Shown here: positions 1 to 11,909 of the stretch, one piece after another
Layout of the letters: each line of letters opens with the position of its first letter
Position numbering within the stretch: the stretch's first letter is position 1
IMG/VR virus record: IMGVR_UViG_3300025671_000004
Location: 1,865-65,864 of that record
DNA from: a virus
Taxonomy: Duplodnaviria; Caudoviricetes
Direction: 5' to 3' (one strand)
Length of the DNA stretch: 64,000 bases
Made by a program: the position numbers and the translations under genes
Notes under the pieces: generated by a model
Database searches by the model: none
The model's input: the letters and a program-made list of their open reading frames with translations, nothing else
Told to the model about the DNA's origin: nothing

Positions 1-987
1 TACCTTGGCGACAAATCCCAAGTCTGATGTGGAGGCAATGCTCAGGTCATCACCTGTTTTTTCGCTGAAAAACGTAGCACCAACGCTCAAGGCGATGTCA
101 CCCATGATTTCATGGCGCCTAAAACCGAAATCGGGCGCACTAACCACGCAAAATTTCAGTCCGTTCTTCACAACGTTCGCAGAAAGTGTGTTAATCACGT
201 TCTGAGAGCAGTCTCCTATGATCAAAAGCGGGGCGCGATTCTGAACCACCGGCTTGATGATGTTTTCAATTTGAACAATGTCGGTAACCTCCATCTCAGT
301 CACCAACACATACGCATTTTCGAGTATACACTCGTCCTTTTTGTAGTTGTTGATGAAAGATTGAGACGCCATACCGCGCTTGACGCGTATTCCACTCACA
401 ACCTTGGTGTGCGTGTTGGGCGTATCCGACTTTTCCACCGTGACTATCCCATTCTTTCCAACAGATTTGTAGACCTCGGAGATGATTTCCCCGATCTCTT
501 TGTCGTTGTTGGCAGAAATGGTGGCTATGGACTTCATGTCATCCTCGGATATCTCAGTAGACATGCTCTCGAGCTCACCAATAATCTCCTCACAAACCTT
601 GTTGATGTTCGAAACCAAGGCAGATTTGTTGTCCTCCTTGGATGTCATGGCCATGGCCTCTTTGATGATGGCCTCAGCCAACACAATTGACGTTGTGGTT
701 CCATCTCCTGCAACCAAAGCAGTCTTGTCCGCCGCTTGGCGGATGACTCTTACGGCGAGATTCTCCACCGGGTCTAAAAGTTCGATCGACTTGGCGACTG
801 TTACACCATCCTTGGTGATGGTTAGCGAAGAAGTTAGGTGAGGTGACTCGATTAGCACCGTGTTGCCACTAGGCCCTAATGTACTGCCAACGGCTTTTGA
901 GATTTTTGAAATGCCCGAGATGAGCTTTCTGCGACCCTCTTCATCGAAGAATAGGTCCTTTGGGTAATAACCTGATTGTTGATTCAT
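1..987 (-). CDS. groEL: Phage-encoded chaperonin GroEL (N-terminal 329 codons; runs off the window edge)
   Basis: Manual translation from ATG at 987: MNQQSGYYPKDLFFDEEGRRKL...STLGPSG...ITKDGVTVAKSI...AGDGTTTS, containing the Cpn60 signature motifs. Not in the ORF track because it has no stop inside the window. Confidence 0.95.
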   Translation of the reverse strand, partial: MNQQSGYYPKDLFFDEEGRRKLISGISKISKAVGSTLGPSGNTVLIESPHLTSSLTITKDGVTVAKSIELLDPVENLAVRVIRQAADKTALVAGDGTTTSIVLAEAIIKEAMAMTSKEDNKSALVSNINKVCEEIIGELESMSTEISEDDMKSIATISANNDKEIGEIISEVYKSVGKNGIVTVEKSDTPNTHTKVVSGIRVKRGMASQSFINNYKKDECILENAYVLVTEMEVTDIVQIENIIKPVVQNRAPLLIIGDCSQNVINTLSANVVKNGLKFCVVSAPDFGFRRHEIMGDIALSVGATFFSEKTGDDLSIASTSDLGFVAKV

Positions 988-1007
988 TGAATTTCGATTT
1001 GGTGAGG

Positions 1008-1038
1008 CAAATGTAATCAGAGGATTTTAAAAACCAAA
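1008..1038 (-). promoter_or_regulatory. Bacteroidetes housekeeping-type promoter for groEL
   Basis: TTTG-N19-TACATTTG on the - strand matches the -33/-7 consensus, 20 nt upstream of the ATG. Confidence 0.75.
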
Positions 1039-1051
1039 ATAAAATGTTGCT

Positions 1052-1360
1052 ATGTCGAAATGTCGAAATGGTTCGCCCCTTTTCTCTCTTATATACTTCC
1101 CCCTTTCTTTTTATTCTTTTTTTTTCCTCTATATAGCTTTTAATAATTAACAAAATTAACATAAGTATTAATAATCAATAAGTTAAGTAAAAAATAGCGT
1201 CATAAAAGAGACAGAAATTGTGTCGAAAAGAGAAAATTATGTCGAAAATAAATTGGGTTTAAAAAAGGGGATTTTTGGAGTGATAGTAATGCTATCGATA
1301 AATTTCTGAAGAATGTCGATTTTGAAATGGTATCCTGACGAATTTTTGTCGGCGATATGA
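1052..1360. other. Putative replication origin or terminus element (TGTCG repeats around a pyrimidine/AT-rich tract)
   Basis: At least 6 TGTCG(A) repeats flanking a T-rich then A-rich tract; resembles 14233-14400. Confidence 0.45.
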
Positions 1361-1501
1361 CGATTTTTTGGGAGAGATATGGGGGGATTTTGGGTTATAT
1401 ATATGATTTCACGGAAAAGCCCCCGATGTGAAAACGATCAAAAGTTGGGGTGGGGGGTGCTATTTTCTAAAAAAGGCTGCATTTTTTTGGCTTTTTTGCT
1501 G

Positions 1502-1950
1502 TAAGTGGCTGACTATCAATCAGTTATGGGTTCCAAAAGCCCATAGGTCAGCCGTTTTTCGTAACTCGTTGATAATCAAGCAGTTATGGTTTCGGTGGGT
1601 TTGGCTGTTTTATAGGTATCAAAGCCCGAAAAGTGTACAAATTTTGGACAGCAGCTAAGTTGCTGATTCTCAGAGTAATAGACAAAATTTTGCGTAACTA
1701 ATTGATTCTCAGCACTTTACTAAGTGCTTGGTAATCAATCACTTACAACTTTCAAGCCCTAATTTCAAACCCAATTTCGCCGAAAATCACGATTTTTCAA
1801 TCGCTGTAACTTGTTGATTTTTAGGACATTACGCCGCCCACTTGATGCCGTTGGAAGGAAAAGTGTAGACTATTTTGGACATGTTTGTCTACTATATTGG
1901 ACAAAATTTAGGTCATGCCAAAACGTAACTCGCTGATTATCAAGCAGTTA
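1502..1950. repeat. Array of seven 25-bp quasi-palindromes TAAST-N3-TGATWNTCA-N4-TTA containing IHF consensus WATCAANNNNTTR
   Basis: Copies start at 1502, 1562, 1656, 1695, 1721, 1807 and 1926; related copies lie near 1167 and 11511. Confidence 0.8.
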
Positions 1951-1955
1951 GCTTT

Positions 1956-1972
1956 TTGGCATGTCGCTTGCT
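1956..1972 (+). promoter_or_regulatory. sigma54 (-24/-12)-type promoter upstream of the early region
   Basis: TTGGCATGTCGCTTGCT has exact GG-N10-GC spacing, directly after an IHF-consensus site. Confidence 0.6.
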
Positions 1973-2072
1973 ATACATTACATGTCGCAGGATGCCTATT
2001 ATTGGTAACGGCGACTCGGAAAGGTTGCCCGATACGCAACCACTAATATAAACAAACCAAATTTATTTTATC

Positions 2073-2651
2073 ATGTCAAATTCAAATGCAAAGGTTGCGA
2101 ATGGCGCAACCAAACCAAAAACCAAAACAATTAAGCTTGAAAGCAATGAACGCGCTGTAGTCAATGCCATAAAAAATGGCATGCGCTCACTTGAAACCCA
2201 CTCTATTAATGGTCTTGAGAAAGCCGTAAACATTGGGCGCGAGTTCCTAAAATTGCGTCAATTTTGGAATGACAGATTAAGCTCGCTGTATCGTGAGCAG
2301 GGTGTTAATTGGAAACAATTCGTCTCAACCACCATTGGTAAGGACTATACATGGCTTACTAGGTTGGCGAATTGCGCCAAAATTAAGGACAGCGATGCGT
2401 CCGTTTACGAAGGGTTTCTATCAGATGCTAAAGTATTGGGCTTCCCGGTCACGCCGGAAGGGTTGATAGCTTTCGCTAATGGCAAGGATGGAAGTAAGGG
2501 CAACAAAGGTAAAACACCACCGGCGGACGTCATCCGTTTCAATGGCCTTGAGGCTAAGTTCAAGGACGGCAAGTTCGAAATAGTCAAGGGCGACCGCAAG
2601 AAGGTCGAAGCCCTTGTAAAATACTTGCAAGGCGAATTGAAGAATATGTAA
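2073..2651 (+). CDS. First early protein, basic, DUF3102-like helical region (possible nucleic-acid binder)
   Basis: 192-aa ORF with an A-rich leader; AVNIGREFLKLR...WKQFV pattern; followed by a terminator. Confidence 0.75.
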   Translation: MSNSNAKVANGATKPKTKTIKLESNERAVVNAIKNGMRSLETHSINGLEKAVNIGREFLKLRQFWNDRLSSLYREQGVNWKQFVSTTIGKDYTWLTRLANCAKIKDSDASVYEGFLSDAKVLGFPVTPEGLIAFANGKDGSKGNKGKTPPADVIRFNGLEAKFKDGKFEIVKGDRKKVEALVKYLQGELKNM

Positions 2652-2658
2652 TTCTTTT

Positions 2659-2688
2659 GAGGCGGGCTTCGGCTCGCCTCTTTTTTTT
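2659..2688 (+). terminator. Intrinsic terminator after the first early gene
   Basis: GAGGCGGGC-TTCG-GCTCGCCTC followed by T8. Confidence 0.9.
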
Positions 2689-2732
2689 CGTTCACACTCA
2701 TCACACTCATCATGTGCCGAGCTGAACGCTTT

Positions 2733-2793
2733 TTGCTGTTTTGGAAAGGTTGCGCGGACGCAACCATGTGCGGTTCGATTCCGCAGCAGCAAC
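2733..2793 (+). ncRNA. D-armless tRNA-like element 1
   Basis: Acceptor TTGCTGT/GCAGCAA, T-arm TGCGG-TTCGATT-CCGCA, middle arm is the GGTTGCG/CGCAACC hairpin. Confidence 0.6.
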
Positions 2794-2794
2794 T

Positions 2795-3016
2795 ATGGAA
2801 ACTTTAAATAAAATTCAAGCCGCATTCAACGTGTGGCACAACGGAGGTCTGCAGACCTCATCGTTTTACTCTGCGAGCGAAGATGAGGCTCGCATGGACG
2901 CGTTCATCGAGCGCTCAGAAGAGCAGCTCGAAACCAATTCGAGTTTCACCTTACTCACGTTCACCGATGAGGATGAGGCGTGGGAAGAGTGGTGTATTTA
3001 TAATGAACAATCTTAA
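2795..3016 (+). CDS. Acidic hypothetical early protein
   Basis: ATG at 2795 (METLNK...) immediately after the tRNA-like element. Confidence 0.65.
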   Translation: METLNKIQAAFNVWHNGGLQTSSFYSASEDEARMDAFIERSEEQLETNSSFTLLTFTDEDEAWEEWCIYNEQS

Positions 3017-3051
3017 CAGGTTGCGTAGACGCAACCATAAACCAAAAACAT

Positions 3052-3420
3052 ATGAAAATAAAAGTATTCTATGAATTATTCGAGCGCATTGAATCGGTGT
3101 TCGATGAGCGCGGTAACGTTAAAAGTCGCAAAGCATGCACCAAACGTGTGCTTGGTAACAAGATTGATACCACCATTAAAAATGATGGTATTCATGGAAA
3201 GAACTTAATCCTGCATGAGTATATCGGGTCTGAGTTGACTGAAGTATCAATGCCGCACCACAAAGCGGTCAGCTTAGTTGATGAGCTGTCGAAGTATTAC
3301 TTAGGGAAGGTAGCCCACCAAAATGGTGTGGAATGGAATGAAATGCTCTTTGAGAAATACCTTCATTACAGGAGCGTGTACGGAGAATTATTAGGACTTA
3401 AAAAACCACAGGTTGCGTAG
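3052..3420 (+). CDS. Hypothetical early protein flanked by 31-bp direct repeats
   Basis: 122-aa ORF with an A-rich leader. Confidence 0.7.
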   Translation: MKIKVFYELFERIESVFDERGNVKSRKACTKRVLGNKIDTTIKNDGIHGKNLILHEYIGSELTEVSMPHHKAVSLVDELSKYYLGKVAHQNGVEWNEMLFEKYLHYRSVYGELLGLKKPQVA

Positions 3421-3449
3421 ACGCAACCATAAACCAAATAATAAAAAAA

Positions 3450-3659
3450 ATGAAAAAATCAATCATTGGACTCTTGGAAGTCCTCGCAATCTACATGGCA
3501 TCTATCATATTGATAAATGCCTTTTTTATGCTACTGAGAATACTAGTATTCTTCACACTCAGCATCGAGTGGGCGGATTCTTTAGGGCTCGCAATCTTCG
3601 GGTTTTGTGTGAGCATAGTAGGAGGGTTTATCGTACTACATATTAGATATGATGAATGA
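3450..3659 (+). CDS. Small membrane protein (2 TM)
   Basis: 69 aa with two hydrophobic stretches. Confidence 0.65.
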   Translation: MKKSIIGLLEVLAIYMASIILINAFFMLLRILVFFTLSIEWADSLGLAIFGFCVSIVGGFIVLHIRYDE

Positions 3660-3918
3660 GCATTTCTCAGCTATCCGCAGGAAGTATAGTACTGCGGATA
3701 CGCGCACTTTTCGAGCCATGACCACCAAGTGGTTGAACTCGATGGAAAGTATTGACGTGAAGTCGTTGGACATTATCATGTACGACCGCAGACTCAGAGG
3801 TCTGTATAAAGTGTACCTTCAAGATGACGGCGATTACCACCTCACCAAAAGGTTGCGAAACGGCGCAACCATAAAACGTTGGAAAGTAAAAAGAAAGCAA
3901 TGGAACACAGAAAGTTAA
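3649..3918 (+). CDS. Hypothetical protein
   Basis: Coupled ORF in the early operon. Confidence 0.6.
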   Translation: MMNEHFSAIRRKYSTADTRTFRAMTTKWLNSMESIDVKSLDIIMYDRRLRGLYKVYLQDDGDYHLTKRLRNGATIKRWKVKRKQWNTES

Positions 3919-4094
3919 CGCGCGAAAGAATGGACGACCACCATGCGTGGTTGTACCAAGGTGCGATATCCGAAGAGGAGGCGAGAATGCTTCAGATCGA
4001 AAGCGGATACCACCCGAATGGATATGGTTTCTTTGAGTTCAAGTTGAACGCAGATGGAACCACAAGTTGGAAGTGTTGGGATTCATGCGATTGA
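3900..4094 (+). CDS. Hypothetical protein
   Basis: ATG at 3900; GYHPNGYG...WKCWDSCD. Confidence 0.65.
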   Translation: MEHRKLTRERMDDHHAWLYQGAISEEEARMLQIESGYHPNGYGFFEFKLNADGTTSWKCWDSCD

Positions 4095-4095
4095 T

Positions 4096-4380
4096 ATGGT
4101 GAAGTTCAAGATATACCAAGTTGGCGACCAAATAATGGTCGAGAAACCAACTGCAGGCGAGCCATGCGTATTCATGAGCAAAATGAACCTATTTGAGATG
4201 TTTGTATCCGTATCTGATACGTTCGAGGTCGTCATAGACTCATACACCCATTTATACATGGGCGAGTTCAAGTGCGATGTAAAGCCAAACAAGAGACGTT
4301 GGATGTTTAGGATACTCAGTTGGACAGAACAGATTATTGCTTACCAAAACCAAAAGAGATATGAGATACCGAGTAATTAA
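4096..4380 (+). CDS. Hypothetical protein
   Basis: ATG 1 nt after the previous stop. Confidence 0.6.
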   Translation: MVKFKIYQVGDQIMVEKPTAGEPCVFMSKMNLFEMFVSVSDTFEVVIDSYTHLYMGEFKCDVKPNKRRWMFRILSWTEQIIAYQNQKRYEIPSN

Positions 4381-4672
4381 ATCAACCATTGATGAGTCGT
4401 TCGACATCATCACAGAGAATGGCGGAGTGGCGTACTTCCACTACGCTGACGACAATTTCGTCACAAAGTACTTCACGAGAGGTCTTAGTGACTGCACTAA
4501 TTCAGACTATGTATGGGACGAACTATCCGAGGGTAAAATTTACACCAAGGATTGGGAGGGCACACCGACCTTTGACGAGGTGGTCAAAGATGCTTTGGGA
4601 TGGCTTGTCTTCCCCGAACCCGAGACATGGGAGCATGACGAGAATTTATGGACTGAGATTTTCCCTAAGTAA
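4361..4672 (+). CDS. Acidic hypothetical protein
   Basis: ATG at 4361; packed in the operon. Confidence 0.65.
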   Translation: MRYRVIKSTIDESFDIITENGGVAYFHYADDNFVTKYFTRGLSDCTNSDYVWDELSEGKIYTKDWEGTPTFDEVVKDALGWLVFPEPETWEHDENLWTEIFPK

Positions 4673-4711
4673 AACAAGGTTGCGAAATCGCAACCATAAA
4701 AATCAAATCAA

Positions 4712-5029
4712 ATGAAAAAAATGTCATTCGCTAGAGTGAAGTCCCTCCAAAAGTTGGCAGGGTACTCAGAGATGCAAGACTTAATCGACAGCGGTCTTGC
4801 ATGGAAATTAGAAGGGTCTGTCGGTCGTTCGGCTATGGACTGCCTAAGGTCGGGAGCATGCATGCTTCCGCTGCAGGTTCACTATGATGCCTATGGTAAT
4901 CGAATACCATCGAGGCATGAAATTGTTCCGGGAAGCACAGGTTCATTCAAGCTATCCCAACAATTTTGGGAAGAGAACGAAGACCTTGCATGGGCTGACC
5001 TATATGAAGAAGAGGAGGAACACGCATGA
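4712..5029 (+). CDS. Hypothetical protein
   Basis: 105 aa; LIDSGLAWKLEGSVGRSAM and DAYGNRIPSR motifs of a recurring phage family. Confidence 0.75.
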   Translation: MKKMSFARVKSLQKLAGYSEMQDLIDSGLAWKLEGSVGRSAMDCLRSGACMLPLQVHYDAYGNRIPSRHEIVPGSTGSFKLSQQFWEENEDLAWADLYEEEEEHA

Positions 5030-5265
5030 GTAAACGACCTATCTACAAGATTGCAGATGAAATATCTGCGAAATGGCCAAAACCATACTTTGGTGCTGAG
5101 CCATACTTAAGAGCAATGCGATACGTTTCGGCACCCGAAGATAGATTCGGGCATGACAATGGACGAACGTTAGCTATATACTTCCTTGCCAATGCGCAAA
5201 GTTTTAGGGGAAATGATGCCCGAAGATTGAAAGCAGAGCTGAAGTCTGTCTGCGACATTAAATAG
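5026..5265 (+). CDS. Hypothetical protein
   Basis: ATGA overlap; YFGAEPYL...YFLANA...RG..ARRLKAELK pattern of a recurring phage family. Confidence 0.75.
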   Translation: MSKRPIYKIADEISAKWPKPYFGAEPYLRAMRYVSAPEDRFGHDNGRTLAIYFLANAQSFRGNDARRLKAELKSVCDIK

Positions 5266-5271
5266 ACTTCA

Positions 5272-5354
5272 TTCCGGTAATGGTTGGGCGCGTATTAAAA
5301 TCAGTAACGCGAAAGAGATGCTTGCCCATGGGTTCGACTCCCATGCCGGAGCCA
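5272..5354 (+). ncRNA. D-armless tRNA-like element 2
   Basis: Acceptor TTCCGGT/GCCGGAG, T-arm ATGGG-TTCGACT-CCCAT, middle arm closed by GGGC/GCCC; fills an intergenic gap. Confidence 0.6.
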
Positions 5355-5371
5355 TTTTTAAAAACAAAACA

Positions 5372-5665
5372 ATGAGAAAAATTACACAACAAGCAATCGA
5401 TGCCTTCAATGGTAACAAGCCATTCAAGAGCGGAAACACAGAAATCGAGGTTGCCTCAAGGGCAACCATCATGAAGCTATTCGGTAACGAAATAGCTTTC
5501 AAGTATCACGAAGACAACTCTCTATGGATAACCAATTGCGGTTGGGACTCAGCCACCACAAAGGATAGACTCAATGCCTTAGATGGGGTAAGTATCCAAC
5601 AAGCCAAAGGTAAATGGTACCTCAATGGAGAGTTATGGAACGGCAAAATCATTCAAATAAAATAA
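5372..5665 (+). CDS. Hypothetical protein
   Basis: MRKITQQ...GW..ATTKDRLNAL; A-rich leader. Confidence 0.75.
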   Translation: MRKITQQAIDAFNGNKPFKSGNTEIEVASRATIMKLFGNEIAFKYHEDNSLWITNCGWDSATTKDRLNALDGVSIQQAKGKWYLNGELWNGKIIQIK

Positions 5666-5666
5666 T

Positions 5667-6023
5667 ATGAAAAAGCAATTAGAGCGTTTGATTCACCTAT
5701 CGGAACACTACTGCGAAGTGACTAGGTTGTTACTCGATGGTAGGGATGGTCACCTTTCCGTTACAAGTTCGGCAAAACAGCTCATGACCACAAGGGATAC
5801 ATTGACCGATATCCCTATCGAGTCTACAACGAGGATAACTGTTTATCAAGATGTTAACTGTCGAGATAGAACAGGATTCTGTGTTGAGTTTGATGACATT
5901 GAGGTAAGGTTCTTTGGGCGTAAAGCCGAAGTTACCACGACCATTCTCAGCGAGAGAGAGTACTCGGAGATATCTGCAGAAGCATTAAGAGTTCTTAAAG
6001 CCTTAAAGAAATGGACAAAGTAA
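5667..6023 (+). CDS. Hypothetical protein
   Basis: Operon-packed ORF. Confidence 0.65.
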   Translation: MKKQLERLIHLSEHYCEVTRLLLDGRDGHLSVTSSAKQLMTTRDTLTDIPIESTTRITVYQDVNCRDRTGFCVEFDDIEVRFFGRKAEVTTTILSEREYSEISAEALRVLKALKKWTK

Positions 6024-6250
6024 TCACACTCATAGAGCCCTCTGTAGGTTGCGCGTTCGCAACCATAAAGCAACGCAGGTTTTACTTAGCCACGCTGATG
6101 TCTATGTATGTACACCTATCATCGATCTTCGAAGGGTTTCGATCCTTCCATGTAGATGGTGGTGGCAAGATTAGGAATGGGTGTAGGCTTGTGGTTAGGA
6201 CAAAGGGCGGCGAAATTACGTTGTATGTTTCAATAACAGACTTGCTATGA
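6011..6250 (+). CDS. Hypothetical protein
   Basis: Overlaps both neighbours; contains a hairpin copy. Confidence 0.55.
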   Translation: MDKVITLIEPSVGCAFATIKQRRFYLATLMSMYVHLSSIFEGFRSFHVDGGGKIRNGCRLVVRTKGGEITLYVSITDLL

Positions 6251-6732
6251 GTACACCTAGATACTATATCATTTGGATCGAAGGTCTTAACGTTAGAAGT
6301 GGAGAGAAGATACTCTCCATTTCTGACGATGGTATTGAGTATACCACCTCCATGAGTCGGGCATTGCGAGTCAAACCTCGTGACCTCTTAGACTTTGTCG
6401 AGAGAATCAGACCATTCGTTTCTGAATGGGCTATCAAGTCTCCTTCAACCTATGTGCCAACCGAGTACGCAAAGAAGGGCACGATATGGATGTTGAATGG
6501 GCCTCGAACGAGGATAAGTAATAAACCTCCAAAAAGGAATCCATTCGGTCTCGCAGCTCTCGATGTAAACAAGTGGACGTACTATGGGTGCGTGATAGAA
6601 TTGAGGGAAGACAACCCCGATCCGGATGAACGATACATGGTCACAAAGAATGGCGTCCTTGTTGGCTATGGTAGATTTTTTGAGAACGCCAAAAGTATAT
6701 GCAGGCAATTTGCAAATTATAAACACCAATAA
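6247..6732 (+). CDS. Two-domain hypothetical protein; C-terminal domain resembles 19329..19541
   Basis: ATGA overlap; W.Y.GC.I motif. Confidence 0.65.
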   Translation: MSTPRYYIIWIEGLNVRSGEKILSISDDGIEYTTSMSRALRVKPRDLLDFVERIRPFVSEWAIKSPSTYVPTEYAKKGTIWMLNGPRTRISNKPPKRNPFGLAALDVNKWTYYGCVIELREDNPDPDERYMVTKNGVLVGYGRFFENAKSICRQFANYKHQ

Positions 6733-6742
6733 AAAAAACAAA

Positions 6743-7069
6743 ATGAAAAAGACATTCACATTTATTTCCATGTCAACAGATGCAGAGTGGGATAGCATCG
6801 ACTTTGACACAGTCATTGTAGACATGAACAAGCAAGACGAAGATGCGATCAAGTTGGCTAGGAAGTTCGCCATGAACAATGCCATTGTATCGCTAAATGT
6901 TAAGTGTACCTCCGGTGTAGAGTACATGGAAGATAGAGAGGAAGCGCATCCGGAGTGGCCACATGATGGGTTCGAGTACTTGATACTCAAGGATTCAATC
7001 TTTCTGTATGCAGAGAATTCGTACAACCCAAGCAGTAATATAGAACTTATGTTGGAGGATGACTTATGA
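6743..7069 (+). CDS. Acidic hypothetical protein
   Basis: ATG at 6743 after an A-rich leader. Confidence 0.7.
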   Translation: MKKTFTFISMSTDAEWDSIDFDTVIVDMNKQDEDAIKLARKFAMNNAIVSLNVKCTSGVEYMEDREEAHPEWPHDGFEYLILKDSIFLYAENSYNPSSNIELMLEDDL

Positions 7070-7388
7070 TAAATACGATATGGATATAATAGAATCAAAC
7101 AAAGTAATCGCCAAGTTCTTAGGCTACAATGTAGTAGATAAGCCAAAGGTAGTAAACGGAGAAAACTTCTTTGAGTATTTTGACGAAGAGAAAGGGTACA
7201 GCATATGTGGTACATCTCTAAAGTTTCATTACTCATGGAATCACCTCATGCCGGTCATTGCGAGGTTGACCTCGCTCGTCCCAATTGAAATATCGCAGGG
7301 CATCACACCCTTCATGCTTCTTGACAATATCGGTAGAGTGCATGCAGAGGTGGTTGAAATAATTCAATGGTACAACCAAAATAAATAA
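7059..7388 (+). CDS. SWxxLMPV-motif phage protein, paralog 1
   Basis: ESNKVIAKF...FHYSWNHLMPV...IIQWYNQ. Confidence 0.75.
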   Translation: MTYDKYDMDIIESNKVIAKFLGYNVVDKPKVVNGENFFEYFDEEKGYSICGTSLKFHYSWNHLMPVIARLTSLVPIEISQGITPFMLLDNIGRVHAEVVEIIQWYNQNK

Positions 7389-7390
7389 TC

Positions 7391-7681
7391 ATGAACACAA
7401 CAGAATCAAACAGACTCATAGCTGAGTTTATGGCAGGTGGAGACAGTCTCTACCTGCAGAGAGACTACATCACAGAGCAGTACTACCCTTTCGACTCCAA
7501 GGAATTAGCGTTCCATATCTCATGGGATTGGCTAATGCCGGTGGTAGAAAGAGTATCGTCAATGATTTACGGTGGAACGGTGTACGATTTACGAGGGGCG
7601 CTACTTAATGCAGACATCGATCGTGTGTACAAAGAGCTTGTAGAGATAATTGAATGGTATAACCAAAAGCAAACATCATGA
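7391..7681 (+). CDS. SWxxLMPV-motif phage protein, paralog 2
   Basis: ESNRLIAEF...FHISWDWLMPV...IIEWYNQ. Confidence 0.75.
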   Translation: MNTTESNRLIAEFMAGGDSLYLQRDYITEQYYPFDSKELAFHISWDWLMPVVERVSSMIYGGTVYDLRGALLNADIDRVYKELVEIIEWYNQKQTS

Positions 7682-7920
7682 ACAAGTGGGAATTAGAAAT
7701 GGCCGGTGGTGACGAGAATATACTCGTCAGACAAATCAATGGCCGAATAACAAAAGCAAGGTACAAGCTCATCAATAGATGGGCGCGAAGGAATAGTGTT
7801 CGATCGGAGTATTGTGGGTGCCCGCACGACTGCTGTGGGTGCCATGTGCGGACTTGGGTAGATGTAGAGTTTACCAAGAGTGGAGCTACACTAACGATGA
7901 CAGAGTGCTTTAATTACTAA
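7678..7920 (+). CDS. Cys-rich small protein, probably metal-binding
   Basis: CGCPHDCCGC motif. Confidence 0.7.
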   Translation: MNKWELEMAGGDENILVRQINGRITKARYKLINRWARRNSVRSEYCGCPHDCCGCHVRTWVDVEFTKSGATLTMTECFNY

Positions 7921-7929
7921 TATAGACCT

Positions 7930-8163
7930 ATGATAAAGATTGAAAACCAAGCATCGCTGAGTTGGTACACTAGCGATGTACGAGCAGCAGTAGACTTCCT
8001 GCCGAAAGAAAAGCAGAAGAAGTTTTACCAAATTGTAGGTGAGTCTGACAGGGACTTGCGTACCTATTTTGAATGCCTACTTGAAGACAGGCAGGACATT
8101 ATCATTCAGTTTATTAACGATCAGATTGCAGACGCAGTCAACCAAACAATAGAATCAATATGA
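7930..8163 (+). CDS. Hypothetical protein
   Basis: Operon-packed ORF. Confidence 0.65.
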   Translation: MIKIENQASLSWYTSDVRAAVDFLPKEKQKKFYQIVGESDRDLRTYFECLLEDRQDIIIQFINDQIADAVNQTIESI

Positions 8164-8345
8164 CAACTTGTTATCCAATCTACGAAGTGGTAAACATCCA
8201 CACCGGTGAAACAGAAAGGGAATTCGAATACGAGATAGATGCCATTGACTGCATAAACTTCGAATTCTCATGGGAGACCCATCATGTTTCATACTATATC
8301 CCATATGATATACTCATGTCGGGTAATTTGAACACCGCTAATTAA
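8160..8345 (+). CDS. Hypothetical protein
   Basis: ATGA overlap. Confidence 0.6.
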   Translation: MTTCYPIYEVVNIHTGETEREFEYEIDAIDCINFEFSWETHHVSYYIPYDILMSGNLNTAN

Positions 8346-8351
8346 AACAAT

Positions 8352-8630
8352 ATGAAAAAGCTATACATTACATTAATCGAGAGGGACAACGGTGAATGTC
8401 CTAACATTGGAACCATAACAGGTTGCGACAACGCAACCATAACCCGCAATGCCTTCAAGGCTTTAGAGTCCCACTTTGATGCAGAGGTGACCGGAATACG
8501 CATACAGGACGGAATGAAGTTTAAGGATGCGGAGAATAGCCCTCCATTAGATGCGACAGTTTCGCTGAATATCGATGGGGATGTGAGTCTTCATGAAATT
8601 GAAATACATCAAACATGGCTTTATGAGTAA
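8352..8630 (+). CDS. Hypothetical protein
   Basis: 92-aa ORF containing the last hairpin copy. Confidence 0.65.
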   Translation: MKKLYITLIERDNGECPNIGTITGCDNATITRNAFKALESHFDAEVTGIRIQDGMKFKDAENSPPLDATVSLNIDGDVSLHEIEIHQTWLYE

Positions 8631-8868
8631 GAAAAAACAATTCACACCTCTAGAATATGAGGTAATCAAGATCATTGGATATGGTGACGAGTTTGCCGCG
8701 TCATTTAACGACATCATGGCTGAGTTCACAGGGTCACCAACCCAACTAAAGGGTGTGTTGTCATCCCTATTCCAAAAGGATGCAATAACACAAGGCGAGT
8801 ATCCGGGTGGAATCACATCATACCACCTAACAGAAACGATCACATCATACCTTGTTAGCAAAACTTAA
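8623..8868 (+). CDS. Small winged-helix-like protein; C-terminus apparently altered by an insertion
   Basis: TPLEYEVIKII...QLKGVLSSLFQK helix pattern. Confidence 0.6.
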   Translation: MSKKKQFTPLEYEVIKIIGYGDEFAASFNDIMAEFTGSPTQLKGVLSSLFQKDAITQGEYPGGITSYHLTETITSYLVSKT

Positions 8869-9093
8869 TTATTATGAACGAAAAGATATATTTCCAACCT
8901 GACTTCAGAAACGATGACACTTTAATTACCCCTGACGGAGTTGAATTATGGAGTTACTATGTGTATGCTAATTTTGATAATGCACGAAAGGATTTCCCTG
9001 ACAGGCAAATAATTGCATATAAAGGTGATGATATAGAAAACCCATACTTTATTGATGGTGATGGTAACTACTAATTGTTGCTAACAGAAACGA
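8827..9093 (+). mobile_element. Inserted single-gene cassette
   Basis: 13-bp direct repeat CTAACAGAAACGA (8827-8839, 9081-9093) and inverted GTTAGCAA/TTGCTAAC around an AT-rich ORF. Confidence 0.65.
8874..9074 (+). CDS. Cassette-borne hypothetical protein
   Basis: 66 aa, visibly more AT-rich than its neighbours. Confidence 0.7.
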   Translation: MNEKIYFQPDFRNDDTLITPDGVELWSYYVYANFDNARKDFPDRQIIAYKGDDIENPYFIDGDGNY

Positions 9094-9112
9094 CTATTAA
9101 AATACAAGCAAT

Positions 9113-9457
9113 ATGAAAATCGAAATTGAATTAACAGAAGAAAGATTAGAGGACATAGTGTATGGCCTCTTCATCACCGCTTGGGAGGGAGGCTCCTCCT
9201 ATTGGGCGGAAGTAAGCGAACCAAATGGGGCAGAGAAAACTCTACTCAAAATGAAGAACGATGGCTATGTGCTGAAGGTGACCCCAATTGATGATGATCC
9301 GGTAGAGGTGACGTATGACGACCTAGTGCATGGCATTGTCCTGTTGGCTAGGGATTTTACTGACTCATACCATGATGTCATCAACGAGTATGACGATGCA
9401 GAGACTGCAGACATTTGGTTTCAGTTGGCAGTATTAGGCGATCTAGTGTATGGATGA
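9113..9457 (+). CDS. Acidic hypothetical protein
   Basis: EGGSSYWA...DAETAD..FQLAVLGDLVYG, a recurring phage family pattern. Confidence 0.8.
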   Translation: MKIEIELTEERLEDIVYGLFITAWEGGSSYWAEVSEPNGAEKTLLKMKNDGYVLKVTPIDDDPVEVTYDDLVHGIVLLARDFTDSYHDVINEYDDAETADIWFQLAVLGDLVYG

Positions 9458-9935
9458 GATAACCACATATCGATGCGATACGATCGCAGTAGTCAAACCT
9501 GTTGGATACGAAGAGGCGGCTATTTGGATCATGCAAAACATCAAGCCAATCTACACAGGCGATGGTCCGAACCTGTACAAGCCGGAATGGATTCCTAACG
9601 CCCCCAACTATGTGAACAAGTTCACGGAGTGGGTTTGGAATAAATACGGAGGCCCCGACCTTATGATGTTCACAAAGCATAGCGAGCTTGAATACGTTGA
9701 AAGGATCTATGCGGGCAACTACCACATTGAATGGAATCCCTTAACCGGGGAGGCAAGTATCATATCACGGCAGACTACCGAGACGGTTCAGTTGATACCG
9801 AAGTACACCAACAAGAGTAAGAAACTCAAGATGGTGATCAAGCATTTTGGTGACAAGCTAATGAACGATACCGAGTTAAAGTTTATGAACCTAAACAAAA
9901 CAGACATAATAAGTATCAAACAAATTTTATCGTAA
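9450..9935 (+). CDS. Hypothetical protein
   Basis: 161-aa coupled ORF. Confidence 0.65.
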   Translation: MDEITTYRCDTIAVVKPVGYEEAAIWIMQNIKPIYTGDGPNLYKPEWIPNAPNYVNKFTEWVWNKYGGPDLMMFTKHSELEYVERIYAGNYHIEWNPLTGEASIISRQTTETVQLIPKYTNKSKKLKMVIKHFGDKLMNDTELKFMNLNKTDIISIKQILS

Positions 9936-10639
9936 TGTACACACGACCAAAACATCTACTAAGCAAGGGCACGACCAATGCCAAGACAGCTAAGAATTCA
10001 TTGGAGTCATATATTTTGTATATGGCTCCTCACGCAACCAACGACAGCGGTGTCAACCTATGTCCATCATCGTCCGCAGGGTGCAGGGCTGCATGCCTAT
10101 ACTCATCCGGCCGGGGTAGGTTCACCAATGTTCAGCAATCTAGGATCAACAAGTCCAACTACTATGTCGAGGATCGATTCCTATTCCTAGAACAACTACA
10201 TGGTGAGCTACAAAAGCTACAAGAGCGAGCCGCAAAATTGGGCACCAAGATTGCCATCAGACTAAATGGCACGACAGATCTCCCGCTATACAAGATGCTC
10301 AAAGCAGACAAGAGGGGTTGGGACAACTTAGTGTTCTATGACTACACCAAGATAGCTGCCAAAGCTGTGAAGTATGCAAGAAGCGAACACTATATTGTCA
10401 CATTCTCTAGGAGCGAGGATCCTAGGAATCAGCATGACTGCATCAACGTATTGGAGGCCGGTGGCAATGTAGCCATGGTGTTTTCAACAGACAAGTTCCC
10501 CGATAAATATATGGAATATCCTGTTGTTGATGGGGATCAGTCAGACATTATGATGTTGTACAACAGAGGTGTTATCTTGGGCCTCAAAGCCAAGGGTGAT
10601 GCCAAGAAAGATAAGTCGGGATTTGTAATTCAACTGTAA
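9935..10639 (+). CDS. Phage Gp88-family protein (radical-SAM-like Cys motif)
   Basis: CPxxSxGCxxxC, RLNGTTD, FYDYTK, DGD.SD and GLKAKG motifs. Confidence 0.8.
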   Translation: MYTRPKHLLSKGTTNAKTAKNSLESYILYMAPHATNDSGVNLCPSSSAGCRAACLYSSGRGRFTNVQQSRINKSNYYVEDRFLFLEQLHGELQKLQERAAKLGTKIAIRLNGTTDLPLYKMLKADKRGWDNLVFYDYTKIAAKAVKYARSEHYIVTFSRSEDPRNQHDCINVLEAGGNVAMVFSTDKFPDKYMEYPVVDGDQSDIMMLYNRGVILGLKAKGDAKKDKSGFVIQL

Positions 10640-11136
10640 TGAAAGAAGTAGAAGTAGAACAACTCACAGAGAGTTTAATCAGCAAGCACGATCTAGATGA
10701 TTGGAGCTTTCGCCTAGGCAATACAAGAAGAGCTATTGGGCGATGTATTCATCGCAAGAAGCTCATTGAGATAAGCCGGCATTACATACCACTCTTGTCA
10801 GATGACGAAGTCAAGGATATTATCTTGCATGAGATTGCGCATGCTATTGCAGGGTACAATGCGGGGCACGGACCAAAATGGAAGAAGGTCGCCAAGATGA
10901 TTGGGGCAGACCCAACAAGGTGCGCGGACATTCCGCCGGAACGAACTCCACATGGCAGATACATGTTGGAGTGCGCGAACCATGGCTTGCTTGGTTATAA
11001 TCACAGACTAAGCCAAAAGGCAAAGGATGCGTATAATAGAGGATCATGTCACTATCTTTGTAAGAAGTGCAAGACACCGGTCATTATCACAGACCTAGTC
11101 ACAGGAAGGAAATATGAATCAAAAAGATCATTATAG
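10639..11136 (+). CDS. SprT-like zinc metalloprotease
   Basis: GRC, HEIAH, GHGPKWK and C-terminal Zn-ribbon CKKC. Confidence 0.88.
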   Translation: MKEVEVEQLTESLISKHDLDDWSFRLGNTRRAIGRCIHRKKLIEISRHYIPLLSDDEVKDIILHEIAHAIAGYNAGHGPKWKKVAKMIGADPTRCADIPPERTPHGRYMLECANHGLLGYNHRLSQKAKDAYNRGSCHYLCKKCKTPVIITDLVTGRKYESKRSL

Positions 11137-11407
11137 GATATCAATAGACAGCGTACAGCATTGGCGAGTCATGCTCTCTGACGAATACAGAACAGGTAAG
11201 GTTTTCGCATTATTCACTTCACTAAAGAAGGAAGATGTTCGAATACCAAGGTATGTGATGGAGCATTACAACTACGCGTTCTATGGTGTTGATGACGAAA
11301 AGCTTTGGAACCTAATAAGAACAGGCAAGACTGTCAACACAGACGATGGAGATATGATAGTAGTGGCCATAGAAAAGATACCCGGAGATCCTATGATTCT
11401 CAATTAA
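11114..11407 (+). CDS. Hypothetical protein
   Basis: Last ORF before the terminator. Confidence 0.6.
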   Translation: MNQKDHYRISIDSVQHWRVMLSDEYRTGKVFALFTSLKKEDVRIPRYVMEHYNYAFYGVDDEKLWNLIRTGKTVNTDDGDMIVVAIEKIPGDPMILN

Positions 11408-11468
11408 GATATACCCTGCGGATGCATGCAGGGAAGTTTGGTTTGTCATTATTGTTTTGTTACTGTTG

Positions 11469-11500
11469 ACCCGGTGGTGCATCACGCCGGGTTTTCTTTT
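11469..11500 (+). terminator. Intrinsic terminator ending the early operon
   Basis: ACCCGG...CCGGGT followed by TTTCTTTT. Confidence 0.75.
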
Positions 11501-11577
11501 AGAAAAAATGTAACGATTTGATTTTCAATAAGTTAAACAATATTTAGGACAACGTTCTCATTTTCAGTAGTTTTTTA

Positions 11578-11585
11578 TATATTTG
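11578..11585 (+). promoter_or_regulatory. Bacteroidetes -7 promoter element for the replication block
   Basis: TATATTTG 9 nt upstream of ATG 11595; an IHF-type palindrome lies at 11511-11535. Confidence 0.65.
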
Positions 11586-11594
11586 CAAACGGTT

Positions 11595-11909
11595 ATGATA
11601 GTGTTAAACGATTTAGTAGACACCATATGTGATGAGCTATTCATCACGCGTGAAGAATTCTTCTCAGCCTCAAAAAAGAAGGAGTGTCACACAGCGAGGC
11701 AATTTTTATTTTACATACTCTACGATGAGATCGGCTTATCCTCAAGTTTCATTCAGAAGTACATGGTGATGAATTCGAGGGATATAGCAAGATCTACAAT
11801 CATCGATGGAGTTAAATCAATGAGTCAGAAGATTGACTCGAACCCTTTATACGCATCTAAATTAAATCAAATAAAATCTAGTTATGAACAAAGAAAAATC
11901 AATTTATGA
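11595..11909 (+). CDS. DnaA C-terminal-like HTH protein
   Basis: SKKKE..TARQFLFY...RSTIIDG resembles Bac_DnaA_C. Confidence 0.7.
   Translation: MIVLNDLVDTICDELFITREEFFSASKKKECHTARQFLFYILYDEIGLSSSFIQKYMVMNSRDIARSTIIDGVKSMSQKIDSNPLYASKLNQIKSSYEQRKINL

What the first reader, a model, noticed from the sequence alone, without database searches (positions are those of the whole stretch)
2023..8438. Ten co-oriented GGTTGCS-N4-6-SGCAACC hairpins punctuate the early region: candidate new regulatory system
Seen: ten copies at 2023, 2093, 2748, 3019, 3411, 3851, 4678, 5449, 6047 and 8421. Each is preceded by A and followed by A (usually ATAA), so all face the direction of early transcription. I noticed none in the other 55 kb. 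The loop varies in sequence and length (4-6 nt), and the copy at 5449 has a compensatory inner pair (GGTTGCC/GGCAACC), which favours a single-stranded stem-loop over a fixed-spacing operator. Copies occur between genes and inside ORFs in different reading frames (KVANGATK, KRLRNGATIK, VGCAFATIK, TGCDNATIT), so selection acts on the nucleic acid. Inference: boxB/nut-like antitermination sites, RNA processing or protein-binding sites, or N4-style hairpin promoters used during DNA entry.
Basis: partly seen in the sequence, partly recalled or inferred. Interest (0 to 1): 0.88.

Follow-up and report, generated by a model that had tools for sequence, protein, structure and literature searches.

The report
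Conserved hairpins punctuating phage early genes
A freshwater Bacteroidota-type phage carries ten copies of one short hairpin only among its early genes, most likely an RNA signal that marks or protects the ends of early messages, at the places where sister phages carry hairpins joined to self-cleaving ribozymes.

Summary
Exactly ten GGTTGCS-N4-6-SGCAACC hairpins lie at the stated coordinates. There are none elsewhere in the 65.9-kb genome and none in shuffles. All ten share an asymmetric flank: A before, A after, ATAA after in 6 of 10.

The phage is a podophage of the Flavobacterium/Cellulophaga phage group. No RNA polymerase or sigma factor was detected.

The exact motif is absent from relatives. 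Sister phages instead carry their own lineage-specific hairpins (GTGTCT-N4-AGACAC, GTCTCT-N4-AGAGAC) in the same early positions. These are often extended by copy-specific pairs rich in G-U on the sense strand, and are followed at once by a type III hammerhead ribozyme or a tRNA-like minihelix.

In variant strains the stems of two G000 hairpins are unchanged while the loops mutate.

Best reading, at about 0.4: a sense-strand RNA element that punctuates the early polycistronic transcript as an end-protecting or processing mark, read by an unknown lineage-specific factor. N4-style promoters, boxB and a dsDNA operator are less likely. I class it as a new variant of a known kind, of moderate to high interest.

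The parts
2023..2041 (+). Hairpin copy 1: GGTTGC stem of 6 bp with C.C at the 7th pair. It lies 31 nt upstream of the ATG of the first early gene.
   Evidence: In variant strains the stems are unchanged and 1 nt is inserted in the loop. It is not the MFE fold.
2093..2111 (+). Hairpin copy 2, inside codons 7-13 of the first early gene (KVANGAT), with a 5-nt loop.
   Evidence: The stem codons are invariant and the loop codons changed in homologues P0002 and P0003.
2748..2765 (+). Hairpin copy 3. It forms the long arm of a tRNA-like minihelix.
   Evidence: In variant strains 3 of 4 loop bases are changed and the stems are unchanged.
3019..3036 (+). Hairpin copy 4. It is intergenic, 2 nt after a stop codon and 15 nt before the next ATG.
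   Evidence: It is the only structure in its 58-nt context, z -4.1.
3411..3428 (+). Hairpin copy 5. The stop codon TAG of ORF 3052..3420 lies in its loop, and it is 21 nt before the next ATG. It is identical to copy 4 over 29 nt.
3851..3870 (+). Hairpin copy 6, with a 6-nt loop. It lies in the 3' end of ORF 3649..3918, 29 nt before ATG 3900.
4678..4695 (+). Hairpin copy 7. It is intergenic, 5 nt after a stop and 16 nt before an ATG, and is followed by the leader AAATCAAATCAAATG.
5449..5467 (+). Hairpin copy 8, with the swapped inner pair C-G. It lies inside gene 5372..5665 (phrog_554) at codons 26-32.
6047..6064 (+). Hairpin copy 9. It lies 23 nt after the stop of 5667..6023, and is either inside ORF 6011..6250 or 33 nt before its in-frame ATG 6098.
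8421..8438 (+). Hairpin copy 10, inside ORF 8352..8630 at codons 24-29.
2733..2792 (+). tRNA-like minihelix: a 7-bp acceptor-like stem and a T arm with loop TTCGATT, no D arm, with hairpin copy 3 as its middle arm.
   Evidence: Fold and own finder. Not called by ARAGORN or Rfam.
5272..5351 (+). Second tRNA-like element: a 7-bp acceptor-like stem, a long arm and a T arm, followed at once by GCCA (5352-5355). It lies between genes 5026..5265 and 5372..5665.
   Evidence: Fold and own finder. Not called by ARAGORN or Rfam.
2659..2688 (+). Canonical intrinsic terminator (9-bp stem, T8) after the first early gene. It shows what a + strand terminator looks like in this phage.
11468..11499 (+). Canonical intrinsic terminator at the end of the block of small early genes.
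2073..2651 (+). First early gene (192 aa), lineage-specific, with hairpins on both sides of its start codon.

Best explanation
The ten hairpins act as RNA, on the sense strand of the early transcripts. They punctuate a long polycistronic early message. Each is a stable 7-bp stem-loop set in otherwise unstructured A-rich sequence, usually just after a stop codon and 15-33 nt before the next start codon.

I infer that the hairpin marks and protects the 3' end of the upstream message unit, the 5' end of the next one, or both, after cleavage in the adjacent single-stranded A/U-rich flank. I also infer that its invariant stem and AUAA flank are read by a factor specific to this phage lineage, either a protein nuclease or an RNA-binding protein.

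Shown:
- The motif, its restriction to the early region and its co-orientation.
- Selection on the stem but not on the loop.
- Analogous lineage-specific hairpins in sister phages, joined to hammerhead ribozymes or tRNA-like minihelices and carrying sense-strand wobble pairs.

Inferred:
- That the G000 hairpin does the same job without a ribozyme.
- That cleavage occurs next to it.
- That a specific reader exists.
For: 1. The motif is real, is found only among the early genes, and is strand-asymmetric.

2. The stem is under selection and the loop is not.
- In the related strain of runs X21 and X23, hairpins 2023 and 2748 keep all stem bases. The loops take 1 insertion and 3 substitutions, and the flanks carry many changes.
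- In homologues of the first early protein at 60-63% identity, the stem codons are invariant inside a variable N-terminus and the loop codons differ.
- Copy 5449 occupies an indel-prone loop of phrog_554.

3. Relatives have counterparts at the same positions.
- 11 of 80 loci fetched through the neighbouring chaperonin have 3 or more copies of an analogous conserved hairpin in the early region. GTGTCT is in 9, GTCTCT in 1 and GTGTAC in 1. Three whole genomes have 7-11 copies.
- Of 74 copies in loci with 3 or more, 33 start within 25 nt of an upstream ORF stop. 20 lie under 40 nt, and 17 lie 60-99 nt, from the next ORF's ATG.

4. In relatives the hairpin is transcribed.
- 17 of 22 hammerhead ribozymes found by my own finder are preceded by a strong hairpin ending within 5 nt, and 13 of these have the GTGTC-type core.
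- Rfam RF00008 gives 7 sub-threshold hits in 4 loci, at 35.6-46.7 bits and E from 1.8e-7 to 6e-4.
- The copy-specific extensions of the stems hold 88 Watson-Crick, 27 G-U and only 6 A-C pairs in the sense orientation.
- The 42 nt upstream of the ribozymes fold better in sense than in antisense, at -14.2 against -12.3 kcal/mol, p 0.036.

5. tRNA-like minihelices occupy the same kind of site in G000 (2 of them, one holding hairpin 2748) and in relatives.

6. No phage RNA polymerase, sigma factor or Y1 transposase was found.

7. The motif is not a host repeat. There are 7 single hits in 185,579 species genomes, which is chance level.

8. Multiple hammerheads flanking phage genes have been read as processing of long phage transcripts (PMC3088659, passages read).
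Against: - There are no RNA data for this phage; no listed run is RNA.
- G000 has no ribozyme next to its hairpins, so cleavage there is pure inference.
- Three to five copies lie inside ORFs (2093, 5449, 8421, perhaps 3851 and 6047), where cutting would destroy the message.
- Sequence-specific reading of a short A-form stem by a protein is uncommon, and no candidate reader was found. The first early protein has no family or fold match.
- The wobble-pair evidence comes from relatives with a different motif. The G000 stems are perfect and carry no such signal.
- A strong terminator after the first gene means that downstream genes need read-through or another promoter, and I could not locate one.
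- The strain table was cut after 40 rows, so only 2 of the 10 hairpins could be checked.
Confidence: 0.4

Rival explanations
1. The hairpin is an RNA operator for temporal control. A middle or late phage protein (or an early one acting on its own message) binds or cuts it to shut off translation of early genes or destroy their messages. This would resemble T4 RegA or RegB in logic, or the coat-protein operator of RNA phages.
For: - The motif is found only in early genes.
- Two copies bracket the start codon of the first early gene, at -50..-32 and +21..+39.
- The clearly internal copies sit within the first 100 nt of their ORFs, at 2093, 5449 and 8421.
- The sequence of the stem is conserved, as expected for a specific binder.
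Against: - In relatives the same kind of hairpin also precedes ribozymes and tRNA-like elements, where translation is not at issue.
- In GTGTCT-type phages the hairpin also occurs in late regions, at the tip of terminator-like stems.
- The loops are not conserved, whereas known operators of this kind are read largely through loop or bulge bases (established knowledge, recalled).
- No RNA-binding protein was identified.
Confidence: 0.2
2. The hairpins are early promoters, as a DNA hairpin or a duplex, for a polymerase or specificity factor that sequence searches cannot recognise, for example a domain of the 4091-aa injected polyvalent protein. The conserved A after the stem would be near the start site.
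For: - Ten co-oriented copies lie 15-33 nt upstream of start codons in 6-7 cases.
- A is invariant at +1 and ATAA is common.
- There is no TAnnTTTG box on the + strand in window 1-8968. I expect about 3.8 from the shuffle mean, though the A-rich, T-poor + strand lowers that figure.
- A 4091-aa virion-type protein of unknown function is encoded.
Against: - No T7-like or two-barrel polymerase signature was found. PF00940 gave nothing, but its control did not ring, so that search is inconclusive. There is no DFDxD-type motif in the giant protein. It has no PDB sequence match to a polymerase. Its atlas neighbours are polyvalent-protein (LPD) clusters.
- No sigma domains were found.
- In relatives the hairpin's upstream flank pairs with its downstream flank through sense-strand G-U pairs, and a ribozyme follows within 0-6 nt. 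The hairpin is therefore inside the transcript there.
- In G000 a start after hairpin 2748 would leave out the 5' strand of the tRNA-like acceptor stem.
- TAnnTTTG is not significantly enriched genome-wide, at 65 against 54 +/- 7.5. The strict two-box consensus occurs about as often as I estimate for chance.
Confidence: 0.15
3. The element is mainly a recombination linker or a selfish palindrome, in the manner of T4-type PeSLs or bacterial REPs. Short identical palindromes between ORFan cassettes would promote cassette exchange by the phage's Sak annealing protein and exonuclease. Any hairpin effect on RNA would be secondary.
For: - The hairpins lie among ORFans. 18 of 28 early proteins have no relative among the 97 stored loci of relatives, which hold 80 chaperonin-anchored loci, 4 sister genomes and one GenBank record.
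- The variant strain has replaced segments at 2114-2505, 2801-3450 and 7685-8397, whose borders lie 3-36 nt from hairpins.
- Copies 3019 and 3411 are identical over 29 nt, loop included.
- The phage encodes a Sak annealing protein and PDDEXK nucleases.
- PeSLs are described as doing this (PMC2839356 passages, PMC4122927 abstract).
Against: - Only 14-18 nt of identity is available, whereas PeSL conservation spans about 100 bp.
- Loops diverge while stems stay fixed, which points to selection on the stem and not to homogenisation.
- The replacement borders do not fall inside the hairpins.
- There is no Y1 transposase and no copies in host-type genomes.
- No host-type promoter accompanies the stem-loop, although that is a defining part of a PeSL.
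Confidence: 0.1
4. The element is a double-stranded DNA operator: an inverted repeat bound by a dimeric phage regulator that represses or activates early transcription.
For: - It has perfect inverted-repeat half-sites.
- Sister genome G002 has an array of 3 copies of TTAGTGTC-N5-GACACTAA 35-59 nt apart in its control region, plus a fourth related palindrome about 20 nt further on. This looks like an operator array, and it shares the GTGTC/GACAC half-site with the hairpins of other relatives.
Against: - The spacing between half-sites varies by 2 bp (4, 5 or 6 nt), which a rigid dimer would not tolerate.
- The flanks are consistently asymmetric.
- The G000 control region has a different 25-nt palindrome family, in 4 copies.
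- Copies lie inside ORFs far from any promoter.
Confidence: 0.07

Closest known systems
Hammerhead ribozymes flanking genes in phage and prophage transcripts (Perreault et al. 2011, PMC3088659; passages read)
   Same: Both put small RNA modules between individual genes of a phage transcription unit, and both are read as cutting a long transcript into gene-length messages. Sister phages of this genome carry type III hammerheads at exactly the sites where G000 has its hairpin.
   Different: G000 has no hammerhead. Its element is an 18-20 nt hairpin with no catalytic core. The conserved hairpin that precedes the ribozymes in relatives does not appear in the passages I read.
PeSL promoter-early stem-loops of T4-type phages (PMC2839356 passages, PMC4122927 abstract)
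   Same: Both are repeated stem-loop elements between small ORFan genes of the early, plastic part of a phage genome, and both are associated with cassette replacement between close strains.
   Different: A PeSL is a composite of a sigma-70-type promoter and a terminator stem-loop, conserved over about 100 bp. Here there is no host-type promoter box beside the hairpin, no U tract on the + strand, and only the 14 stem bases and 2-5 flank bases are conserved.
RNase III processing hairpins between the early genes of phage T7 (established knowledge, recalled)
   Same: Both are intercistronic stem-loops in a polycistronic early transcript that would leave a protective 3' hairpin on the upstream message.
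   Different: T7 sites are long, irregular duplexes of about 20 bp or more without a shared sequence. Here the stem is 7 bp, too short for RNase III, and its sequence is invariant.
Bacterial REP elements and their RAYT transposases (established knowledge, recalled)
   Same: Both are short palindromes with conserved stems and freer loops, placed just after stop codons inside operons. REPs are known to protect upstream mRNA from 3' exonucleases.
   Different: No Y1 transposase is present in the phage. There is no excess of the motif in 185,579 species genomes. There are ten copies in one 6.4-kb region only.
N4 virion RNA polymerase hairpin promoters (PMC4496689 seen only in a search listing; details recalled)
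   Same: Both involve short GC-rich hairpins with conserved stems upstream of early genes near one genome end, in a phage that encodes a giant virion protein.
   Different: No polymerase domain was detected. The loops are 4-6 nt and unconserved, not 3 nt with a conserved purine. There are ten copies spread over 6.4 kb, some inside ORFs. In relatives the wobble pairs favour the non-template strand.

Membership tests
N4-type hairpin promoter | The phage encodes a virion-packaged T7-like RNA polymerase. | tested here: inconclusive
   PF00940 was not found, but its control rang nowhere. The giant protein has no polymerase match in Pfam, PDB sequences or the atlas. A very divergent enzyme cannot be excluded.
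N4-type hairpin promoter | A 5-7 bp stem with a 3-nt loop carrying a conserved purine (recalled definition). | tested here: not met
   The loops are 4, 5 or 6 nt and no loop position is conserved.
N4-type hairpin promoter | The hairpin forms on the template strand (recalled definition). | tested here: inconclusive
   The G000 stems are perfect and give no strand signal. In relatives the stem extensions hold 27 G-U against 6 A-C pairs on the sense strand, which speaks against the template strand there.
lambda-type nut site (boxB) | A stem-loop whose conserved loop is read by an N-type peptide, with boxA nearby, at one or two sites per operon (recalled definition). | tested here: not met
   There are ten sites, the loops are variable, and there is no conserved element beside the hairpin except A/ATAA.
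PeSL (promoter-early stem-loop) | A host sigma-type early promoter joined to the stem-loop. | tested here: not met
   There is no TAnnTTTG on the + strand in window 1-8968, and no conserved upstream positions beyond -3.
PeSL (promoter-early stem-loop) | It flanks ORFan cassettes that are exchanged between close strains. | tested here: inconclusive
   The variant strain has replaced segments 2114-2505, 2801-3450 and 7685-8397, with borders 3-36 nt from hairpins. This is one comparison only, and its table was cut.
Intrinsic terminator | A GC-rich hairpin followed by a U tract on the transcribed strand. | tested here: not met
   None of the ten copies was flagged on the + strand. 5 of the ten were flagged on the - strand, with weak T runs. 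True + strand terminators exist at 2659 and 11468.
REP/RAYT system | An associated Y1 (HUH) transposase and many genomic copies. | tested here: not met
   PF01797 is absent, with a working control. There are 7 single hits in species genomes.
Hammerhead ribozyme (type III) | A CUGANGA..GAAA core with three stems. | tested here: not met
   There is no RF00008 match at E up to 10 in the whole genome, none at E up to 5 in 900-12000, and none with my own finder. It is present in relatives.
RNase III processing site | About two turns of duplex RNA (recalled definition). | tested here: not met
   The stems are 7 bp and the flanking A.A pair does not extend them.

The most novel reading that the evidence does not exclude
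The hairpin is the address of a dedicated, lineage-specific hairpin-reading protein, either an endoribonuclease or an RNA-binding protein encoded among the ORFan early genes or delivered with the virion. This protein would do by protein what sister phages do with hammerhead ribozymes or tRNA-like minihelices. Together these would form an interchangeable 'punctuation code' for early messages in a widespread clade of Bacteroidota phages, with stem sequence and reader co-evolving (GGTTGCG, GTGTCT, GTCTCT and others).
Probability: 0.25. Interest if true: 0.8.

Novelty: new variant of a known kind. Interest (0 to 1): 0.6.

Why it matters
Why phages place self-cleaving ribozymes between genes is still an open question. 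This clade offers a natural comparison. The same intergenic position is filled by a conserved hairpin alone (this genome and locus L239), by a hairpin plus a hammerhead, or by a tRNA-like minihelix.

If the hairpin is read by a specific factor, it would be a compact, portable RNA tag. It would also open a view onto post-transcriptional control in Bacteroidota, where translation start signals and RNA decay are poorly known. The clade has cultured members (Flavobacterium and Cellulophaga phages), so the question can be tested at the bench.

Tried and rejected
- **Close relatives with the same motif.** None were found. I also searched with the first early protein (none) and with the covariance model over 97 loci of relatives (none).
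- **Megablast** of the first 12 kb against GenBank phages gave no match.
- **Expression data.** No RNA holder was listed, so nothing can be said on expression.
- **Strain comparison**. The table of differences was cut at 40 of 364 rows, so 8 of 10 hairpins could not be checked. Parts without cover are not evidence.
- **Polymerase and sigma hunt.** All negative or uninformative: (control silent). One search gave one DFDTD in a tail-fibre-like protein, which I judged irrelevant.
- **First early protein.** No Pfam or PHROG family and only 2 homologues. The AlphaFold model has pLDDT 70, with no PDB fold match at E up to 0.001.
- **Host-type promoters.** The single box TAnnTTTG is not enriched. The strict two-box consensus is found 8 times, about what I estimate for chance. 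Near-consensus candidates upstream of the first gene are unproven.
- **Sigma-54 and ECF-like readings of the motif.** Considered by eye and dropped, because the spacing varies.
- **CRISPR-repeat mimicry.** Considered and not tested.
- **tRNA genes and Rfam families in the window.** None.
- **Literature.** No paper in the held library contains the hairpin sequences in a phage context (two unrelated hits). None was found on hairpins or promoters in Cellulophaga or Flavobacterium phages. Supplements were not asked for, so supplementary tables of PMC3088659 may list phage hammerheads of this clade that I did not see.

Full report
**What the window is**

The window is bases 1865-65864 of a 65,864-bp virus record with direct terminal repeats. 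Its portal and large terminase match PHROG families of tailed phages. The terminase is 45% identical to those of Flavobacterium 'elemo' podophages and matches those of Cellulophaga, Tenacibaculum and Maribacter phages below 60% identity. It is about 70% identical to an uncultured freshwater phage (MW202828.1) and to many IMG/VR contigs. DNA runs that hold the sequence are freshwater or aquatic metagenomes.

Genes run rightward from 2073 to about 20.7 kb, as small ORFans followed by a replication and recombination module: a GP88-family protein, SprT, two DnaA-C HTH proteins, the Sak annealing protein, PDDEXK nucleases, a primase-helicase, an SNF2 helicase and VRR-NUC. Genes run leftward from 64 kb to 20.8 kb, and include a 4091-aa protein. 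That protein has an LPD23 hit and weak GNAT hits, all below Pfam's curated cut-offs, and its atlas neighbours are polyvalent-protein clusters. A chaperonin gene reads leftward from 987. Window 988-2072 is a non-coding control region with its own 25-nt palindrome family in 4 copies.

- The pattern occurs 10 times, at the stated places, and never in 100 shuffles.
- The whole genome has no further copy.
- Relaxing to 3 mismatches and loops of 3-8 adds only chance-level hits, 6 against 7.1 in shuffles.
- A covariance model of the ten copies finds only those ten in 1.5 Mb. It scores them about 10-21 bits higher on the + strand, because the flanks are asymmetric.
- A precedes and follows every copy. 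ATAA follows 6 of 10, and nothing further upstream is conserved.
- Loops are 4 nt (6 copies), 5 nt (3) or 6 nt (1), with no conserved base.
- Copy 5449 has the inner pair swapped, and copy 2023 has a C.C mismatch there.
- Nine of ten copies are the minimum-energy fold in a 58-60 nt context. The clearly intergenic copies 3019, 3411 and 4678 are the only structure in unstructured A-rich surroundings, z about -4.

**Where the copies sit**

- Five are plainly outside ORFs:
  - 2023 is upstream of the first gene.
  - 2748 is inside a tRNA-like element.
  - 3019 is 2 nt after a stop.
  - 3411 has a stop codon in its loop.
  - 4678 is 5 nt after a stop.
- Two are ambiguous: 3851 is in the last codons of one ORF, 29 nt before the next ATG, and 6047 is 23 nt after a stop.
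- Three are inside ORFs: 2093, 5449 and 8421.
- Where a start codon follows, it lies 15-33 nt downstream.

**Selection acts on the stem**

Contigs of runs X21 and X23 carry a strain roughly 90-97% identical. Around hairpins 2023 and 2748 the flanks show many substitutions and indels. The 14 stem bases of each are unchanged. One base is inserted in the first loop, and 3 of 4 bases differ in the second. Only the first 40 of 364 difference rows were shown, so the other eight hairpins are unchecked.

The first early protein has just two homologues in 5.8 billion clusters, at 60-63% identity. In their variable N-termini the residues encoded by the stem (K-V-A and A-T) are invariant, while the two encoded by the loop differ.

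Copy 5449 lies in gene 5372..5665, a full-length member of phrog_554. It sits exactly where seven homologues differ most and four of them have a 4-residue gap.

**Relatives**

The exact motif is absent from five related virus records, from IMG/VR, metagenome and species-genome scans beyond single chance hits, and from 97 loci of relatives. It is therefore not a host repeat, and it is specific to this lineage.

I fetched 80 loci through the chaperonin that lies beside the early region. In 13 of them one 6-bp stem recurs 3 or more times, and 11 of these are analogous early-region hairpins: GTGTCT-N4-AGACAC in 9, GTCTCT-N4-AGAGAC in L239 and GTGTAC in L223. The other two are a tandem repeat and a control-region cluster. 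Three whole sister genomes have 7-11 GTGTCT copies. A fourth, G002, has only a control-region array.

In L239, four of the six copies are followed, like those of G000, by an A-rich leader and an ATG within the 32 nt shown. Across 74 copies, 33 begin within 25 nt of an upstream stop. The next ATG is either under 40 nt away (20 copies) or 60-99 nt away (17 copies).

**Hammerhead ribozymes follow the hairpins in relatives**

The 60-99 nt class is explained by what lies in between. Reading the sequences showed the core CUGAUGA...GAAAC of a type III hammerhead ribozyme directly after the hairpin.

- Rfam RF00008 matches seven such sites in four loci, at 35.6-46.7 bits (gathering score 48.5) and E from 1.8e-7 to 6e-4.
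- A finder of my own, requiring the core and three stems, gives 23 hits in 18 of 86 sources and none in G000. One hit, in MW202828, looks spurious. All 17 hits in chaperonin-anchored loci are on the early-sense strand.
- In 17 of the 22 credible cases a strong hairpin ends within 5 nt of the ribozyme, and in 13 of these it has the GTGTC-type core.

**In relatives the hairpin is RNA on the sense strand**

The conserved core is lengthened by flanking pairs that differ from copy to copy. In the sense orientation these hold 88 Watson-Crick, 27 G-U and 6 A-C pairs. The 42 nt before the ribozymes fold better in sense than in antisense, at -14.2 against -12.3 kcal/mol, Wilcoxon p 0.036. In relatives the hairpin is therefore part of the transcript and forms in the sense RNA. 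After ribozyme cleavage it would sit a few nucleotides from the new 3' end of the upstream fragment.

**tRNA-like minihelices**

At one site in L276 a tRNA-like minihelix replaces the ribozyme. 41-nt minihelices (acceptor stem plus T arm) occur on the early-sense strand of L251, L281 and L299.

G000 has two such elements. One, at 2733-2792, has hairpin 2748 as its middle arm. The other, at 5272-5351, is followed at once by GCCA. Neither is called a tRNA by ARAGORN or Rfam. Such structures are classical substrates of RNase P and RNase Z (established knowledge, not tested here).

**Interpretation**

The clade uses several interchangeable RNA modules between its early genes. G000 and L239 use the hairpin alone. 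The best-supported reading is that the G000 hairpins are sense-strand RNA elements that punctuate the early transcript. They would give message units a stable end structure, and probably serve as the address for a factor that cuts or binds beside them.

The invariant stem, the free loop and the lineage-specific sequence argue for a specific reader that co-evolves with the motif. Its identity is unknown: almost all early genes are ORFans, and the first early protein has no family or fold match. That multiple hammerheads flanking phage genes imply processing of long transcripts was proposed by Perreault et al. 2011 (PMC3088659, passages read). The conserved hairpin partner does not appear in the passages I read.

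**What speaks against this reading**

- There is no RNA evidence for this phage.
- No ribozyme lies beside the G000 hairpins.
- Three to five copies are inside ORFs.
- Reading a short RNA stem by its sequence is unusual.
- A strong terminator follows the first gene, and I could not place a promoter after it.
- The wobble-pair argument is borrowed from relatives with another motif.

**Rivals**

1. *An RNA operator for shut-off of early genes.* This fits the early-only distribution and the pair of copies bracketing the first start codon. It fits less well with hairpins before ribozymes and tRNA-like elements in relatives.
2. *A promoter for an unrecognised polymerase.* This fits the spacing to start codons, the invariant A, and the lack of a TAnnTTTG box on the + strand up to 8968. 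However, no polymerase or sigma was found, and in relatives the hairpin is inside the transcript.
3. *A PeSL- or REP-like recombination linker.* The variant strain has cassette replacements with borders near hairpins, and copies 3019 and 3411 are identical over 29 nt. But the shared sequence is very short, the loops diverge while the stems do not, and there is no transposase.
4. *A duplex DNA operator.* This is disfavoured by the variable spacing and the asymmetric flanks.

**Comparison and novelty**

The element works most like the intercistronic stem-loops of phage early operons, namely T7 RNase III sites and the stem-loop half of PeSLs, and like REP hairpins. It meets the defining features of none of them (see the membership table).

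The following appear to be undescribed in the library I could search:
- its sequence-invariant short stem;
- its restriction to the early genes;
- its lineage-specific counterparts;
- their coupling to hammerheads and tRNA-like minihelices in a common clade of aquatic Bacteroidota-type phages.

I class it as a new variant of a known kind, with interest 0.6.

Noticed in passing
L300 4491-4545, 6300-6355, 7053-7107 (- strand); L240 7170-7224; L301 7115-7169 and 4184-4239; L257 4453-4508: Type III hammerhead ribozymes lie between early genes of sister phages. They score just under Rfam's gathering score (35.6-46.7 bits against 48.5), and each sits directly after a conserved hairpin. My own finder gives 23 hits in 18 of 86 sources.
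   Followed up: yes
window 2733-2792 and 5272-5351 (+): Two tRNA-like elements have a 7-bp acceptor-like stem and a consensus T arm but no D arm. The second is followed at once by GCCA (5352-5355). Neither is called by ARAGORN or Rfam. They are possible RNase P/Z processing signals. 41-nt minihelices of the same kind are in L251, L281 and L299.
   Followed up: partly
L301 256-364 (-); also L270, L283, L289, L300: tRNA-like genes on the early-sense strand carry long insertions. The L301 one has 30 nt in the anticodon loop by Rfam, and others total 87-140 nt. These are possibly intron-bearing or decoy tRNAs.
   Followed up: no
window 1502-1526, 1562-1586, 1721-1745, 1926-1950: Four copies of a 25-nt imperfect palindrome (TAACTCGTTGATAATCAAGCAGTTA type) lie in the non-coding region between the chaperonin and the first early gene. 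They look like operators or iterons and are unrelated to the hairpin motif.
   Followed up: no
window 1045-1250: Several direct repeats of ATGTCGAAA-type words lie in the same control region.
   Followed up: no
window 20779-33054 (-): A 4091-aa ORF has sub-threshold LPD23 and GNAT hits, and its atlas neighbours are polyvalent-protein (LPD) clusters. It is probably an injected polyvalent protein. No polymerase signature was found.
   Followed up: partly
window 1-987 (-) and upstream in the genome: The phage encodes a GroEL-type chaperonin. The 329-aa N-terminal part in the window hits Cpn60_TCP1. It is conserved at 51-60% identity in the 80 best loci kept, out of 594 that matched.
   Followed up: partly
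window 4696-4714; also relatives' loci L300, L301, L276, G001, G004: The leader AAATCAAATCAA(A)ATG recurs in front of unrelated early genes in several phages of the clade, and AAACC/AACCA words are common in the leaders. It may be a shared translation-start context.
   Followed up: no
window 2114-2505, 2801-3450, 7685-8397: In the related strain of run X21 these segments are replaced by other sequence of 381, 715 and 37 nt (the last an outright deletion of 711 nt). This shows cassette turnover in the early region.
   Followed up: partly
G003 36766, G004 31705, G001 330: In GTGTCT-type sister genomes the conserved core also sits at the tip of longer stems followed by T runs outside the early cluster. 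There the same core caps terminator-like hairpins.
   Followed up: no
window 2058-2065 (- strand): A full Bacteroidetes-type promoter consensus (TTG-N17-TAAATTTG) points leftward between hairpins 1 and 2 and would read through hairpin 1 in antisense. The consensus occurs about as often as chance in this window, so its meaning is open.
   Followed up: partly
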